Source: a virus
Length of the DNA stretch: 64,000 nucleotides
Direction: 5' to 3' (one strand)
UHGV virus genome: UHGV-0300374
The notes under the pieces were generated by a model that saw nothing but the letters and a program-made list of their open reading frames with translations, had not been told where the DNA came from and made no database searches. The position numbers and the translations under genes are program-made. The stretch's first letter is position 1, and each line of letters begins with the position of its first letter. Below are positions 34,256-50,979 of this stretch, one piece after another.

Positions 34256-34798
34256 TTAGAAAAAGCTCTTTAAATCCTCTTCTGTGATGTTTCCTGTTAG
34301 TGTATCCATGATGTCACAAAAAACCTGAATACTGTCCGACTGTTGAACACTTTTAGCAAGAAGCTCCAGAGACTCATCAAGATAATTTAAATTTGGGTTA
34401 TCCAATGAAGGAAGACAAAAAGGTGAAAACATGGCATTAAATTCAGTGATGTAAACCTTTTTAATCCAGCTTATATCAAAATACTCTGTAAAACTTGCCA
34501 CGCTCGACATATTATCACAAGAATAATCATCATTCAACTCATCCTCTGGAATATCAAGTTCCAAGATAACAATATTTTGAGTTTTCATCTGAAAAGCTGC
34601 CGTTATAGTGGCATTGCCAAGAGCTTGCTGGATACCTTCAGAGATTATTTCTTCCTCATCGTCGCCATAGATTTTATTTTCTGGATACACGTAAAAATTG
34701 CCGTCCATATCCGAACAATTCCATGCGCCTGATGGTTTATCACCGTTATTAATCAGGTTGAGGAAATTTTCTTGAGTAGTACCGTGAAAACATTTCAT
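34256..34798 (-). CDS. hypothetical acidic protein (leader-cassette gene)
   Basis: ORF track, 180 aa. Confidence 0.5.
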   Translation of the reverse strand: MKCFHGTTQENFLNLINNGDKPSGAWNCSDMDGNFYVYPENKIYGDDEEEIISEGIQQALGNATITAAFQMKTQNIVILELDIPEDELNDDYSCDNMSSVASFTEYFDISWIKKVYITEFNAMFSPFCLPSLDNPNLNYLDESLELLAKSVQQSDSIQVFCDIMDTLTGNITEEDLKSFF

Positions 34799-47421: not shown

Positions 47422-49203
47422 TTAAAGCTGCTTGTCAATATTATTTCGAATATCACCAAGAGTTGTGTAGCCGAACTGCTCAGAGTCACTAAAGACTAGA
47501 CGTAAAGCACAAGCTGGGTGTTCAAGTGCATCTGCAAAGCTCTGGAACCCATAGCCATCTACAGCTTTCAGCTTATCACCATCCCACATAGGCGCTACAC
47601 CACCAAAGGCAGATTTCTTAACACCACTATCTGTTTTAGGGTCTTTTGCAAGCATAATCTCTTTACCACCAATGCTTGCAAGAGTTGCTTTGACAGCAAA
47701 TGCAAAGGTGTCACGAGTCATGTACTGGTAAGTGTAAGAGCCTACACCAAACACTACGTTAGAGCTTGCAAAACCCATTTCATACAGACGCTTCAGGATT
47801 TCGTTTGCACGTTCCAGCGTGATAGAGTCGCCATAAATAAGTCCAATATGCTCATCCAGTACTTTAAAGCCTTTAGAGTTAATAGTTCCCCCAAAGATGT
47901 TGTACAGTGTCTTAATAGCTCCATCAATCTCAGCTACAGGACGTGTTACAACGTTTGCAGAACCAACCATATAAGCATTTTTCAACATCACTGTATCAGC
48001 AACTTCAAAGTCTTCTCTGTCAACAACCATCTCGTAGCCTTCTGACAGTAGCCATCCAGCAATACCATAGTTGATGTTCTCAAGCTTCATGTTCAGAACA
48101 GCATTCAACATTGTGTCACTGGCTTCCAGCTTGCTTAGGTGCTCGTAATAAGCCTTCTTAGCACATTCTAAGTGGATTGCTTTATAACCTGTGACAATAT
48201 GTACAGGGTCTCCAGAGTCAGGACGAATTACCAGTTTGCCATCACGTTCCATAATTTCTTTACGGAGTGCTGGTAAAATTTCTGACACAGTTCTCCAGAA
48301 GTTATAAGTGTCTGAAACAACACTTGCAATACCAGTTGGGTAAGTTTCTGTTAAGAAACGACGGAAGGTTTGTAACTCACCTTTAAAGCGTCTTTCTTCT
48401 TCAATCAACTCATTACCACCTTCCCAAGCAATGTTTGCACACATTACAGAGTGTTCAGTGGCTGGTACAGAACTACCAATATCAGAGATTGGGTAAGACT
48501 GTCCATAGATGCGTTTAGCCGTGTATACAGCAGGGAAGCTATCGGTTCCTTTAAAGCTGGTTAAGTGACCTACAGCGTTAAATGCGTCATCAGTAAAGCC
48601 GGACATACCACGCATAGCAAAGTCGTGACACTGATAAGGTAAATGTAGGTCGTTGTCACAAGTAAGGTCAGCCCACTTCTTACATATACGTTTGTAGTGC
48701 AATGCAATAGTCGCAATGGTGCAAGCCTTCCAAATCTCAGCAGAGAAAGCATCTTCCAGATAACCTGCTACCCAATGGAAGCCTGAAACAGTGTTCTGGA
48801 AGACAATCATTGGGACACGCATCGGGACAACTGTACCTTCTTCTACAGCATATACTTCAACTGGTAGATAACCTAAATCGTGGAGTGCTTCCCAATGCTC
48901 TCGACCGATAGCATCTTTGCCCAGAACACCATTCATGACTTCTAAGATTTCGTCAATTGCTTCTTTTTTGTCACGTTCAAAGAACGTAGCATTCCAGTGG
49001 TCTATCAAGTAATCTTTAACAAAACGTTGAATACCAAAAGCGACTACACCATCAATTGCTAATGGACTGTTAAACCATTTGTTGCTACGTGGTGTCAGGT
49101 TGAACATCAAATATTCTGTTGCACTAGGGTACTGGTAAACATGACCAGATTTGTAAGCATCTGCGTTTAAACCTGCTGGTACTGCATAAAGTGATTTAGT
49201 CAT
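47422..49203 (-). CDS. nadV: nicotinamide phosphoribosyltransferase family protein (NadV/NAMPT-like)
   Basis: 593 aa, N-terminus MTKSLYAVPAGLNADAYKSGH and length fit the NAMPT family; recognition from memory, no search run. Confidence 0.6.
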   Translation of the reverse strand: MTKSLYAVPAGLNADAYKSGHVYQYPSATEYLMFNLTPRSNKWFNSPLAIDGVVAFGIQRFVKDYLIDHWNATFFERDKKEAIDEILEVMNGVLGKDAIGREHWEALHDLGYLPVEVYAVEEGTVVPMRVPMIVFQNTVSGFHWVAGYLEDAFSAEIWKACTIATIALHYKRICKKWADLTCDNDLHLPYQCHDFAMRGMSGFTDDAFNAVGHLTSFKGTDSFPAVYTAKRIYGQSYPISDIGSSVPATEHSVMCANIAWEGGNELIEEERRFKGELQTFRRFLTETYPTGIASVVSDTYNFWRTVSEILPALRKEIMERDGKLVIRPDSGDPVHIVTGYKAIHLECAKKAYYEHLSKLEASDTMLNAVLNMKLENINYGIAGWLLSEGYEMVVDREDFEVADTVMLKNAYMVGSANVVTRPVAEIDGAIKTLYNIFGGTINSKGFKVLDEHIGLIYGDSITLERANEILKRLYEMGFASSNVVFGVGSYTYQYMTRDTFAFAVKATLASIGGKEIMLAKDPKTDSGVKKSAFGGVAPMWDGDKLKAVDGYGFQSFADALEHPACALRLVFSDSEQFGYTTLGDIRNNIDKQL

Positions 49204-49248
49204 CTTTTAATCTCTCTCAAAATGGGGCTTTCAAGCCCCTATAAACTT

Positions 49249-50145
49249 TCAATCAAGGTTTGCTACAGTAACTTGACCATAATGTGTTAAGCCACGGTCT
49301 TTAGCTTCGCCTAAAGAGTTTGTAGTGTAAATATGGTCGATACCATTGTCAAGAAGGTTTTCAACACCTTTAGAGAAGATACCATGTGTTACATAAAGCT
49401 CAACACGTTTTGCACCTGCTTCACGAAGATGTTTAGCTGCTTCTATGAAGGTTCGACCACCATCACAGATATCATCAAGAATCATAACAGTTTTATCTGT
49501 CAAATCAACATCATCAAGGATTCGCATACCAGTAATTTCTCCAGTCTTAAGATTTCGCACCTTAGACATTGTGATATATGGTTTATCCACCTCTTTAGCA
49601 GTCTCTGCAATCTTCTTAGAAGCACCTGCATCTGGGGCTACTAAGTAATCAACCAGTGGGTCATTTGCATAGTGGACTGCAATTTCCTTTTGAGGAATAC
49701 TCTGGAAGCAGTTAAACAGGTTATCTGGTGCATAACTGTGAGGGTCAACTGCACAGACTGCACCAAACCCCATTGCATTGACCTGTTTAGCAAAAACCTT
49801 TAAAGCTGCTGCATCACCTTTAAACATGTGACGGTCGTATCGTGCATTTGGCAAGTAGTAAAAAATGACAGTCTTCAGGGCATAATCATGAGGAACTAAA
49901 TCGTCAATTGCTTCTTTAGCCAGTGCCACAGCAAACAGTGTGTCTTTGTCATAACCCTTTACAATCATAACCACATTGTTAATAGATGATGCTGCATAAG
50001 CAGTAAAATCAACAAGCTCTTGTGAAAAGTGGCCACCAATCTCACCAGAAGGGAATTGGATGATGTTAAACTCTTCTTCATGAGTTCCTTTAGTCGGTGA
50101 ATGAATTGTGACACGGATAGATGTTTTCATAGTTTCCTCTCTCAA
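49249..50145 (-). CDS. ribose-phosphate pyrophosphokinase family protein (Prs-like)
   Basis: PRTase signature VMILDDICDGGRT and Prs-like architecture; adjacent to nadV-like gene. Confidence 0.55.
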   Translation of the reverse strand: MREETMKTSIRVTIHSPTKGTHEEEFNIIQFPSGEIGGHFSQELVDFTAYAASSINNVVMIVKGYDKDTLFAVALAKEAIDDLVPHDYALKTVIFYYLPNARYDRHMFKGDAAALKVFAKQVNAMGFGAVCAVDPHSYAPDNLFNCFQSIPQKEIAVHYANDPLVDYLVAPDAGASKKIAETAKEVDKPYITMSKVRNLKTGEITGMRILDDVDLTDKTVMILDDICDGGRTFIEAAKHLREAGAKRVELYVTHGIFSKGVENLLDNGIDHIYTTNSLGEAKDRGLTHYGQVTVANLD

Positions 50146-50420
50146 TCAAAAGTTACGTTTGTTACTGCCATTGCAGATTTGCATTTTACAGGGTCTACAA
50201 CGTGGTAAAGTACACTACAGTTACCTGTGCTGTCTGGTACAGGCTTTACCCATTGCTGCTTTATAGTTGGCTCTCCTAAGTCTTTGTAAGAACCATCTGT
50301 AAAGTTGTTTACCATCTCAAGTGCAATTGGTTCTGGAACATGACCACGTATCATGTACATCTCACAACCATTACCTCCTTCACTGACTAATGGTAAAATC
50401 TCCCACTTTTCTTTAGCCAT
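50142..50420 (-). CDS. hypothetical protein
   Basis: ORF track, 92 aa. Confidence 0.4.
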   Translation of the reverse strand: MAKEKWEILPLVSEGGNGCEMYMIRGHVPEPIALEMVNNFTDGSYKDLGEPTIKQQWVKPVPDSTGNCSVLYHVVDPVKCKSAMAVTNVTFD

Positions 50421-50928
50421 TATAAGTTGCCCTATAAACTGTCTCGAACTTCAACAGGAGAGATATTGCCAAATCTGTATAGTTGTTGTCAAGCACATCT
50501 GGCATATTATTTTTGATATATTTCTCTTGCTCTTCATAGGTCATCTTAGGGATGCTTAGAAGGATATCTCCTTGCTTCTGGTTATCAGCTTTAGTTTGGA
50601 TAAACCAGTTCGCACAGTGATGTTCACCACCTTTTGTAACAGGCTTGTGGTGGCCTAGTGTAAATGTTTGCTTACCCGTATACCTGCAAAGATTGTTCAG
50701 TGTTGCAATGGTGTTCTTCACAACACACCATTCATACAGGTTATCTATTGTGTAGTATGGGTAATAACGGACAAGTGCTCTTTCACGGAAGTTATCATGA
50801 TTCCAAAGAACCATGTGATTAGAATTTGAAGGGTCATATTTGTGGGAGTCTATAAACTCTTGACGCTCATCAAAGCTGAGTCTTAGAACTGACATTGCAA
50901 CCGAACGTTTCAGGTTTGACAGGTACAT
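50413..50928 (-). mobile_element. HNH endonuclease gene (homing-endonuclease-like)
   Basis: Motif LGHHKPVTKGGEHHCANW (HH...N...H with Cys). Confidence 0.5.
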
Positions 50929-50947
50929 TTTACCTCCAAAATAAAAA

Positions 50948-50966
50948 GGGAACCTTTACAGTTCCC
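50948..50966 (-). terminator. terminator-like hairpin
   Basis: gggaac-ctttacag-ttccc with A-run on plus side. Confidence 0.4.
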
Positions 50967-50979
50967 CTATAGTATCTGT

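What the first reader, a model, noticed from the sequence alone, without database searches (positions are those of the whole stretch)
47422..50145. Adjacent NadV-like and Prs-like genes: NAD salvage or an NAD-reconstitution counter-defence pair
A NAMPT-family gene and a PRPP-synthetase-family gene (VMILDDICDGGRT) are adjacent and co-oriented, and no NMN adenylyltransferase is evident nearby. Classical interpretation is PRPP supply plus nicotinamide phosphoribosylation. From memory of recent literature, phage Prs homologs can instead pyrophosphorylate ADP-ribose and NAMPT homologs condense it with nicotinamide to rebuild NAD+ after depletion by host immunity. Which chemistry applies cannot be decided by eye. 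A macro-domain gene (39154-39939) sits 8 kb away.
Basis: partly seen in the sequence, partly recalled or inferred. Interest (0 to 1): 0.6.

Follow-up and report, generated by a model that had tools for sequence, protein, structure and literature searches.

The report
Known phage NAD-rebuilding gene pair (NARP1)
These two adjacent genes are the already-described phage NARP1 pair (Adps + Namat), which rebuilds NAD+ from ADP-ribose and nicotinamide after a bacterial defence has destroyed it. They are near-identical to the genes of coliphage Bas63 in which the pathway was discovered, so the finding is real but not new.

Summary
Two co-oriented minus-strand genes encode a PRPP-synthetase-family protein (49249..50130; the ORF runs to a TTG at 50145) and a NAMPT-family protein (47422..49203).

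The window is a Felixounavirus coliphage. The NAMPT-like protein is 585/593 identical to Bas63 gp80 (Namat). The Prs-like protein is 77% identical to Bas63 gp79 (Adps), in the same gene order. Bas63 genes 79-80 are the operon in which NARP1 was discovered:
- Deleting them sensitises the phage to SIR2-HerA.
- ADPR-pyrophosphate appears in infected cells.
- The effect does not need host NadR or PncC.

The window's exact Adps allele is already listed as Adps in that paper's tables (phages Alf5, XTG1).

Sequence features agree. The protein carries the Namat adenine-clamp motif GSYTYQYMTRD, whereas KVP40 Nampt has GGGLLQQLDRD. The catalytic residues are intact, including the Adps lysine. No NMNAT or Nudix domain was found in any window ORF of 140 aa or more.

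Verdict: already known, low interest.

The one open point is the Poa1p-like macro-domain gene 8 kb away. It is homologous (30% identity) to the Adpp phosphatase of the extended NARP1-AP pathway, but it is not operon-linked and not listed as such. Whether it feeds NARP1 is undecided.

The parts
49249..50130 (-). adps: ADP-ribose pyrophosphokinase (Prs-family), 293 aa. The ORF extends to a TTG at 50145, but the ATG at 50130 has a GAGAGG ribosome-binding site.
   Evidence: ORF and sequence. It is 77% identical to Bas63 gp79, 37% to River4 Adps, 34% to SPbetaL1 Adps and 29% to E. coli Prs. K190-x-R192 aligns with the SPbetaL1 Adps catalytic K162. It falls below every NCBIfam Prs equivalog cut-off. 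The same allele is listed as Adps for phages Alf5 and XTG1 in the Osterman 2024 tables.
49224..49239 (-). Intergenic hairpin GGGGCTTGAAAGCCCC followed by ATTTTG, lying between adps and namat; its role is not known.
   Evidence: Sequence. It is identical in Bas63. The RNA fold energy is -14.3 kcal/mol for the 57-nt stretch from the last bases of adps to the namat start. It does not meet the terminator scan's T-run criterion.
47422..49203 (-). namat: nicotinamide ADP-ribose transferase (NAMPT-family), 593 aa.
   Evidence: It is 585/593 identical to Bas63 gp80. The closest solved structures are SPbetaL1 Namat 9W5W/9W5X at E 2.6e-128, against 4e-41 for the best NAMPT chain in the list. The clamp motif GSYTYQYMTRD sits at aa 488-498 and the clamp-loop residues are K42-W43. 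Catalytic residues D15, Y17, F195, R198, D221, H251, R327 and D329 are all present.
47387..47410 (-). Terminator-like hairpin plus T-run, starting 12 nt after the namat stop codon; probable end of the transcription unit.
50142..50928 (-). Two small upstream genes that appear to be in the same transcription unit. They are homologues of Bas63 gp77 (50413..50928, 88% identical) and gp78 (50142..50420, 99% identical).
   Evidence: Identities. A terminator-like site at 50946-50968 lies just upstream of them. gp77 of Bas63 is reported to counter the Ec67 retron (10.1101/2024.10.10.617714). That they share a transcript with adps-namat is inferred, not shown.
39154..39939 (-). Poa1p/TARG1-like Macro-domain protein (261 aa) with a C-terminal domain of unknown function. 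It is a possible, unproven accessory enzyme (ADPR-1''-phosphate phosphatase) and is not part of the operon.
   Evidence: Pfam Macro. 97% identical to Bas63 gp95. hhalign against Vibrio phage Gary Adpp gives probability 99.8% at 30% identity. AF2 model pLDDT 89.7. Foldseek best hits are TARG1, DarG and Poa1p. Poa1p H23 corresponds to H25 here.

Best explanation
The pair is NARP1 (NAD+ reconstitution pathway 1) of a Felixounavirus coliphage.

Proposed mechanism:
1. A host defence such as SIR2-HerA/Nezha, type I Thoeris, DSR1/2 or SEFIR cleaves NAD+ into ADP-ribose and nicotinamide.
2. Adps, a diverged Prs-family enzyme, uses ATP to pyrophosphorylate the free ribose of ADP-ribose, giving ADPR-PP.
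3. Namat, a diverged NAMPT, displaces the pyrophosphate with nicotinamide and regenerates NAD+ directly. No NMN intermediate or NMN adenylyltransferase is needed.
4. The phage can then replicate despite the defence.

What is shown here: orthology to Bas63 genes 79-80, intact catalytic and specificity residues, strong purifying selection, and no NMNAT or Nudix Pfam hit in the window ORFs scanned.

What is shown in the literature for the Bas63 orthologues: the in vivo anti-defence phenotype, ADPR-PP in infected cells, and independence from host NadR/PncC.

What is shown only for more distant homologues (SPbetaL1, and by report DyoEdafos and Gary): the in vitro chemistry.

What is inferred: that this window's proteins, in particular the divergent N-terminal half of Adps, perform the same reactions.
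For: - Namat is 585/593 identical and Adps 227/293 identical to Bas63 gp80/gp79. The flanking genes are the same: NrdG, gp76-78 upstream and gp82-83, rIIA, rIIB downstream.
- Bas63 lacking genes 79-80 loses the ability to overcome SIR2-HerA. An ion of m/z 720.010, assigned as ADPR-PP, appears only with the operon. The counter-defence persists in a pncC nadR double-deletion host (10.1101/2024.02.11.579819).
- An independent study found a 10^4- to 10^6-fold plating loss for g79 or g80 deletions on Sir2-HerA, rescued by complementation (10.1101/2024.10.10.617714).
- The window's exact Adps allele (MKTSIRV...) is listed for phages Alf5 and XTG1 in that paper's Adps table with a 'Yes' flag, and their Namat proteins are labelled 'Adps-associated'.
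[quoted passage not shown] KVP40 Nampt (NARP2) has GGGLLQQLDRD and Xanthomonas Nampt has GGALLQKVDRD.
- The clamp-loop residues K42-W43 match the Bas63 arrangement described in that paper.
- Adps scores 111 bits against River4 Adps and 97 bits against SPbetaL1 Adps, but only 61 bits against host E. coli Prs. It fails all NCBIfam Prs equivalog cut-offs.
- Purifying selection is strong: Namat omega 0.03, Adps omega 0.05-0.18.
- No NMNAT or Nudix Pfam hit was found in the window ORFs of 140 aa or more that were scanned or in the Bas63 annotation.
Against: - No enzyme from a Felixounavirus has been characterised in vitro. The Bas63 Adps 'did not purify well', so SPbetaL1 proteins at 34-43% identity were used instead.
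- The N-terminal 180 residues of this Adps are only 66% identical to the Bas63 allele that was tested in vivo.
- Namat enzymes keep some PRPP-dependent NMN-forming activity in vitro (PMC12774641), so a minor classical side reaction is not excluded.
- About 23 kb of the phage genome lies outside the window. It was checked only through the annotation of the related Bas63 record.
Confidence: 0.93

Rival explanations
1. Classical salvage. The Prs homologue makes PRPP from ribose-5-phosphate, the NAMPT homologue makes NMN from PRPP and nicotinamide, and host NadR or PncC/NadD/NadE complete NAD+ synthesis.
For: Pfam, PHROG and GenBank annotations all name the proteins this way. E. coli has NadR and PncC routes from NMN. 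Namat retains roughly half the NMN-forming activity of human Nampt with PRPP in vitro.
Against: Bas63, with 99% and 77% identical proteins, still overcame SIR2-HerA in a pncC nadR double-deletion host. SPbetaL1 Adps gave no product in the Prs-type reaction but converted ADPR. With both substrates offered, Namat made only NAD+. The window protein has the adenine-clamp motif that PRPP-preferring Nampt enzymes lack. Adps fails all Prs equivalog thresholds.
Confidence: 0.04
2. NARP2-type pathway. The NAMPT homologue is a true Nampt and works with a phage NMN adenylyltransferase encoded elsewhere in the genome, as in Vibrio phage KVP40.
For: About 23 kb of the genome is outside the window. Namat and KVP40 Nampt are homologous at 28-30% identity.
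Against: No NMNAT or Nudix domain was found in the scanned window ORFs of 140 aa or more. None is annotated in the complete genome of the close relative Bas63. The published tables label the Felixounavirus proteins 'Adps-associated'. The clamp motif is of the Namat type, not the KVP40 type.
Confidence: 0.01
3. General nucleotide-precursor booster. The Prs-like enzyme raises PRPP for phage DNA synthesis, fitting the neighbouring ribonucleotide reductase genes, and the NAMPT gene is only loosely associated with it.
For: The pair sits downstream of the nrdA/B/D/G genes in a nucleotide-metabolism region.
Against: In the published survey, 97% of Adps-clade genes have Namat next to them. Single deletions of Bas63 g79 and g80 both cost 10^4- to 10^6-fold in plating on Sir2-HerA. 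A PRPP-synthetase role is not supported by the Prs equivalog scores or by the biochemistry of the homologue.
Confidence: 0.02

Closest known systems
NARP1 of Escherichia phage JohannRWettstein (Bas63), genes 79-80 (Adps/Namat); Osterman et al., bioRxiv 10.1101/2024.02.11.579819
   Same: Same genus, gene order, protein lengths (293 and 593 aa) and intergenic hairpin. Namat is 99% identical. The Adps C-terminal 113 aa are 96% identical. All catalytic and clamp residues are identical.
   Different: The Adps N-terminal 180 aa are only 66% identical. This is an old, recombined allele under purifying selection (dS 1.26, omega 0.18). Bas63 gene 81, just after Namat, is absent from the window.
NARP1 of Bacillus phage SPbetaL1 (biochemically and structurally characterised; PDB 9W5W/9W5X)
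   Same: Two-gene adps-namat operon. The Adps catalytic Lys is conserved (K162 there, K190 here). The Namat catalytic core and clamp-helix motif are conserved (GSFTYQYNTRD there, GSYTYQYMTRD here).
   Different: Identity is 34% for Adps and 43-47% for Namat. The clamp loop uses K42-W43 instead of R40. The window Namat carries an insertion of about 85 aa (roughly aa 343-427) and one of 15 aa (aa 261-275) that SPbetaL1 Namat lacks. By tblastn, the large insertion is found only in Ounavirinae.
NARP1-AP of Vibrio phages Gary and River4 (Adps-Adpp-Namat; Osterman et al., bioRxiv 10.64898/2026.01.28.702374)
   Same: Adps and Namat are homologous at 37% identity each. A Poa1p-like Macro protein homologous to Adpp is encoded in the same genome (30% identity, hhalign probability 99.8%).
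   Different: Here the Macro gene lies 8 kb from the operon rather than inside it, and it has an extra C-terminal domain of about 95 aa. It is at least as similar to the macro proteins of T4-like phages, none of which appeared among the listed Adps hits. No Escherichia or Salmonella phages appear in that paper's NARP1-AP table.
NARP2 / NadV-NatV of Vibrio phage KVP40
   Same: A NAMPT-family enzyme used by a phage to restore NAD+.
   Different: KVP40 Nampt prefers PRPP, lacks the aromatic clamp motif (GGGLLQQLDRD) and works with a phage Nmnat. Neither feature applies here.
Canonical ribose-phosphate pyrophosphokinase (E. coli Prs)
   Same: PRT fold, the DD-x-x-D-x-G-x-T ribose-phosphate loop and the K-x-R catalytic loop.
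   Different: Identity is 29% over 195 aa. The protein lacks the N-terminal and regulatory-loop segments present in E. coli Prs in the alignment. It scores 91 bits against the 297-bit cut-off of the E. coli-type Prs model.

Membership tests
NARP1 (Adps + Namat) | A Prs-family gene and a NAMPT-family gene adjacent and co-oriented in a phage genome | tested here: met
   49249..50130 and 47422..49203, both on the minus strand with a 45-nt gap. The window is a Felixounavirus.
NARP1 (Adps + Namat) | The Prs-family member belongs to the Adps clade rather than to canonical Prs | tested here: met
   77% identical to Bas63 Adps. It scores 111 and 97 bits against River4 and SPbetaL1 Adps, versus 61 bits against E. 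coli Prs. It is below every NCBIfam Prs equivalog cut-off. The same allele is listed in the published Adps table. No full tree was built here.
NARP1 (Adps + Namat) | Adps catalytic lysine (SPbetaL1 K162, B. subtilis Prs K197) present | tested here: met
   K190 in MSKVRN aligns with K162 in GHKQRN, and R192 is invariant in the alignment.
NARP1 (Adps + Namat) | [quoted passage not shown] | tested here: met
   GSYTYQYMTRD at aa 488-498. The control KVP40 Nampt has GGGLLQQLDRD.
NARP1 (Adps + Namat) | Namat clamp loop supplying an adenine-stacking residue (Arg at position 3, or Lys/Tyr followed by a stacking residue) | tested here: met
   S40-N41-K42-W43, the same K-W pair as Bas63 Namat. The stacking itself is inferred from the published AF3 model of Bas63 Namat.
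NARP1 (Adps + Namat) | Intact NAMPT-type catalytic core (residues corresponding to SPbetaL1 D13, Y15, F189, R192, D215, H245, R306, D308) | tested here: met
   D15, Y17, F195, R198, D221, H251, R327 and D329 are all present. S190 of SPbetaL1 Namat is A196 here, as it is in Bas63.
NARP1 (Adps + Namat) | ADPR + ATP gives ADPR-PP, and ADPR-PP + nicotinamide gives NAD+ | not testable with these tools
   Shown in vitro for the SPbetaL1 enzymes. ADPR-PP was detected in Bas63-infected cells. No Felixounavirus enzyme has been assayed in vitro.
NARP1 (Adps + Namat) | Confers escape from NAD+-depleting defence systems | not testable with these tools
   Shown for the Bas63 orthologues by two groups.
NARP2 (Nampt + Nmnat) | A phage-encoded NMN adenylyltransferase accompanies the NAMPT homologue | tested here: not met
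   No CTP_transf_like or Nudix hit in the window ORFs of 140 aa or more that were scanned. None is annotated in Bas63. ORFs shorter than 140 aa and the 23 kb outside the window were not scanned by profile.
Canonical Prs (ribose-phosphate diphosphokinase) | Reaches the curated score of an NCBIfam Prs equivalog model | tested here: not met
   The best equivalog, NF002095, scores 104.5 bits against a cut-off of 296. The E. coli-type subfamily model NF002320 scores 91.1 against 297. Only the broad subfamily model TIGR01251 passes, at 120 against 113.
NARP1-AP (Adps + Adpp + Namat) | A Poa1p-like Macro-domain phosphatase gene inside or adjacent to the NARP1 operon | tested here: not met
   The only Macro gene found (39154..39939) lies about 7.5 kb downstream of namat, with rIIA, rIIB, the PNK homologue and other genes in between.
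NARP1-AP (Adps + Adpp + Namat) | The Macro protein is homologous to Adpp/Poa1p and keeps the catalytic His | tested here: met
   hhalign against Gary Adpp gives probability 99.8%, E 6.4e-29 and 30% identity. Poa1p H23 corresponds to the invariant H25 in HGCNC. The fold matches Poa1p with a TM-score of 0.75, but TARG1 and DarG match at least as well.
NARP1-AP (Adps + Adpp + Namat) | ADPR-1''-phosphate phosphatase activity and escape from aRES | not testable with these tools
   No data exist for any Felixounavirus. Bas63 is not mentioned in 10.64898/2026.01.28.702374.

The most novel reading that the evidence does not exclude
The unlinked Poa1p-like Macro protein (39154..39939, homologue of Bas63 gp95) may act in trans as an ADPR-1''-phosphate phosphatase that feeds NARP1. 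That would give Felixounaviruses a 'split' NARP1-AP able to overcome RES-type (aRES) NAD+ phosphorolysis. Operon-based surveys would have missed this arrangement. The extra C-terminal domain could add a further, unknown function.
Probability: 0.3. Interest if true: 0.4.

Novelty: already known. Interest (0 to 1): 0.15.

Why it matters
For genome annotation, it confirms that 'ribose-phosphate pyrophosphokinase' and 'nicotinamide phosphoribosyltransferase' are misleading names in roughly 250 Ounavirinae records. The two genes should be called Adps and Namat, an anti-defence module.

For phage therapy and host-range prediction, the pair predicts resistance to SIR2-, TIR- and SEFIR-type NAD+-depleting defences.

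It adds nothing conceptually new, because the pathway was discovered in this genus. The modest open questions are:
- whether the distant Macro protein extends the pathway against aRES;
- what the Ounavirinae-specific Namat insertion does;
- why two deep Adps N-terminal alleles persist.

Tried and rejected
- I guessed the Bas63 accession from the alphabetical order of the BASEL records. MZ501111, MZ501081, MZ501084 and MZ501085 were wrong; MZ501086 was right.
- I assumed PDB 9KE8 was KVP40 NadV. tblastn showed it is not from any phage in the collection (best hit 55% identity), so I dropped it as a comparator. KVP40 nadV was instead located through the cloning-primer sequence in the paper's supplement.
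- I considered diversifying selection as the cause of the divergent Adps N-terminus and rejected it. dS is near saturation (1.26) and omega is 0.18, which points to an old recombined allele.
- I considered the intergenic hairpin as a terminator. It lacks a sufficient T-run under the scan's criteria.
- I tried to separate a phosphatase role from a de-ADP-ribosylase role for the Macro protein by sequence profile and by fold. TARG1, DarG and Poa1p all match comparably, so no decision was possible.
- I did not run the large protein-database searches, a full phylogeny or a structure prediction for Adps or Namat. The 99% and 77% identity to the experimentally studied orthologues already settles the assignment.
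Full report
**Observation**

The stated interval holds two minus-strand ORFs. One is 47422..49203 (593 aa). The other is 49249..50145 (298 aa from a TTG).

The second gene most likely starts at the ATG at 50130, which has a GAGAGG ribosome-binding site just upstream. That gives 293 aa.

Family assignments are secure:
- Pfam places the 593-aa protein in NAPRTase/NAMPT_N and the 293-aa protein in Pribosyltran/Pribosyl_synth.
- PHROGs 448 and 619 match at E 4.8e-202 and 1.6e-96.

**Where the window comes from**

Megablast of the region finds 261 phage records, almost all Felixounavirus and related Ounavirinae. The best matches are 95-97% identical over the whole stretch (Alf5, XTG1, warpig and others). 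They are annotated everywhere as 'ribose-phosphate pyrophosphokinase' and 'nicotinamide phosphoribosyltransferase'.

**What is known about this operon**

The paper that defined NAD+ reconstitution pathway 1 (NARP1) started from genes 79-80 of the Felixounavirus JohannRWettstein, also called Bas63 (bioRxiv 10.1101/2024.02.11.579819). Its main results were:
- Deleting the two genes made Bas63 sensitive to SIR2-HerA.
- An ion assigned as ADPR-pyrophosphate (m/z 720.010) appeared only when the genes were present.
- The counter-defence persisted in a pncC nadR double-deletion host, which rules out the NMN route.
- The Bas63 Adps 'did not purify well', so the chemistry was shown with the SPbetaL1 homologues: ADPR + ATP gives ADPR-PP, and ADPR-PP + nicotinamide gives NAD+.

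An independent knockout screen confirmed that g79 and g80 are each needed on Sir2-HerA hosts, with a 10^4- to 10^6-fold plating loss that complementation rescued (10.1101/2024.10.10.617714).

**Direct comparison with Bas63**

I fetched Bas63 (MZ501086).
- The window's NAMPT-like protein is 585/593 identical to gp80.
- The Prs-like protein is 227/293 identical to gp79, with no gaps.
- Gene order is the same: nrdG, gp76, gp77, gp78, adps, namat, gp82, gp83, rIIA, rIIB and on to the Macro gene gp95.
- Bas63 gene 81 is the one gene missing from the window.
- The 16-nt intergenic hairpin is identical in both phages.

The supplementary tables of the NARP1 paper already list the window's own Adps allele (MKTSIRVTIHSPTKG...) for phages Alf5 and XTG1. 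Those entries sit in the Adps table with a 'Yes' flag, and the Namat proteins of the same phages are labelled 'Adps-associated'.

**Specificity determinants in Namat**

The crystal-structure paper on SPbetaL1 Namat (PMC12774641; PDB 9W5X/9W5W) defines a 'selectivity clamp' that recognises the adenine of ADPR-PP. It has two parts:
- a loop that supplies a further stacking residue.

The window protein has GSYTYQYMTRD at aa 488-498 and K42-W43 in the loop, exactly as in Bas63. Two PRPP-type enzymes serve as controls: KVP40 Nampt has GGGLLQQLDRD and a short loop, and Xanthomonas Nampt has GGALLQKVDRD.

All catalytic-core residues are present: D15, Y17, F195, R198, D221, H251, R327 and D329.

By sequence score, the nearest solved structures are SPbetaL1 Namat at E 2.6e-128. 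Xanthomonas Nampt scores 4.8e-52 and the best NAMPT chain in the list 4e-41.

**Adps versus canonical Prs**

| Comparison | Score or identity |
|---|---|
| Bas63 Adps | 480 bits |
| River4 Adps | 111 bits |
| SPbetaL1 Adps | 97 bits |
| Host E. coli Prs | 61 bits, 29% identity |

- The protein fails every NCBIfam Prs equivalog threshold, for example 104.5 bits against a cut-off of 296.
- The catalytic lysine that was mutated in SPbetaL1 Adps (K162A) aligns with K190.

The divergence from Bas63 is concentrated in the N-terminal 180 residues, which are 66% identical. The C-terminal 113 residues are 96% identical. Synonymous divergence in the N-terminal part is near saturation (dS 1.26) and omega is 0.18. 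This is an old allele brought in by recombination and kept under purifying selection, not a fast-evolving or decaying segment.

tblastn shows two allele classes among Ounavirinae: 155 records at 90% identity or more, and 94 records at 60-80%. Namat as a whole has omega 0.03.

**No NMNAT partner**

I scanned most window ORFs of 140 aa or more against Pfam. None gave a CTP_transf_like or Nudix hit. The rest were not scanned; most match genes named in the Bas63 record (rIIA, rIIB, NrdA/D/G, endolysin, an Ig-like protein), and three plus-strand ORFs lying opposite minus-strand genes were left unassigned. The complete Bas63 annotation has no NMNAT either.

**Transcription unit (inferred)**

- A terminator-like hairpin at 50946-50968 precedes the gp77 and gp78 homologues.
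- A second terminator-like hairpin at 47387-47410 follows namat directly.
- The unit therefore appears to be gp77-gp78-adps-namat.
- gp77 of Bas63 is reported to counter the Ec67 retron, so this may be a small anti-defence cluster.

**The Macro gene, 8 kb away**

A 2026 preprint (10.64898/2026.01.28.702374) reports three things:
- RES-domain defence (aRES) cleaves NAD+ to ADPR-1''-phosphate, which Adps cannot use.
- About 15% of NARP1 phages carry a Poa1p-like Macro phosphatase, named Adpp, in the operon. This extended pathway is called NARP1-AP.
- Adpp restores the ADPR substrate for NARP1.

The evidence on the window's Macro protein is as follows:
- Vibrio phage River4 shows the Adps-Macro-Namat layout.
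- The window's Macro protein is 30% identical to River4 and Gary Adpp, with hhalign probability 99.8%.
- It keeps the invariant HGCNC motif, whose His corresponds to Poa1p H23.
- It has Q90 and G131 at the positions that align with the residues I recall as TARG1's catalytic Lys84 and Asp125 (alignment; the identity of those residues is from memory and was not checked).
- The AF2 model is confident (pLDDT 89.7), but it matches TARG1, DarG and Poa1p about equally well.
- The protein is at least as close to the macro proteins of T4-like phages, none of which appeared among the listed Adps hits.
- It has an extra C-terminal domain of about 95 aa with no structural match.
- No Escherichia or Salmonella phage appears in the preprint's NARP1-AP table.

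A role as a trans-acting Adpp is plausible but undecided. A de-ADP-ribosylase role is a live alternative.

**Verdict**

The finding is a correct identification of a known system. It is a member of NARP1 at essentially the type locus. Novelty is 'already known' and interest is low. The residual curiosities are listed under Noticed in passing.

Noticed in passing
window 39154..39939 (-): Two-domain protein. An N-terminal Poa1p/TARG1-like Macro domain (aa 1-160) is homologous to the NARP1-AP phosphatase Adpp at 30% identity. A beta-rich C-terminal domain of about 95 aa has no structural match. It is unlinked to the NARP1 operon, and no Escherichia or Salmonella phage appears in the published NARP1-AP table. 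It could be a trans-acting ADPR-1''-phosphate phosphatase or a de-ADP-ribosylase.
   Followed up: partly
window 47422..49203 (-), Namat aa ~343-427 and 261-275: The Felixounavirus Namat carries an insertion of about 85 aa and another of 15 aa relative to the crystallised SPbetaL1 Namat and to KVP40 Nampt. By tblastn, the large insertion is found only in 254 Ounavirinae records, always inside this gene. River4 Namat has a shorter, unrelated-looking insert at the same place. I found no discussion of the insertion in the text of the Namat structure paper.
   Followed up: partly
window 49591..50130 (-), Adps aa 1-180: Among Felixounavirus and related Ounavirinae phages, the N-terminal half of Adps exists as two deep allele classes: 90% identity or more to the window, versus 60-80%. 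Against Bas63 this half is 66% identical with dS 1.26 and omega 0.18, while the adjacent C-terminal half and Namat are 96-99% identical. This is a recombination mosaic within the gene.
   Followed up: yes
window 49224..49239 (-): A perfectly conserved GC-rich hairpin (GGGGCTTGAAAGCCCC, then ATTTTG) lies between adps and namat and is identical in Bas63. It could be a partial terminator or an RNA-stability element that sets the Adps:Namat ratio.
   Followed up: partly
window 50413..50928 (-) and 50142..50420 (-): These are homologues of Bas63 gp77 (88% identical), reported to counter the Ec67 retron, and gp78 (99% identical, unknown function). They sit directly upstream of adps, between two terminator-like sites, which suggests a four-gene anti-defence transcription unit.
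   Followed up: partly
window 47368..47421 (junction after namat); relatives: Bas63 gene 81 (345 bp) is absent here. Alf5 has an extra segment of about 350 bp in this region. Several relatives (ASO1B, phiWec174, dune, Mushroom, VSe11 and others) have a span about 470 bp longer than the query across the adps-namat region and an HNH endonuclease annotated under the match. The region is a hotspot for small insertions and deletions.
   Followed up: no
window 60151..60906 (-): A 251-aa protein with a MazG-like PRA-PH pyrophosphohydrolase domain (Pfam PF01503, E 8e-6). In Proteus phage J3S a MazG-like gene sits next to the Adps homologue (H157).
   Followed up: no
window 34256..34798 (-): The homologue of Bas63 gp107, by matching ORF length and position only (180 aa; identity not computed). 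The PhageMaP preprint describes gp107 as having slight structural similarity to the NAD-binding domain of RNA 2'-phosphotransferase. No Pfam hit was found here. Together with the polynucleotide-kinase homologue (41968..42663) and the Poa1p-like Macro protein, this hints at an RNA-repair/ADPR-1''-phosphate link that was not explored.
   Followed up: no
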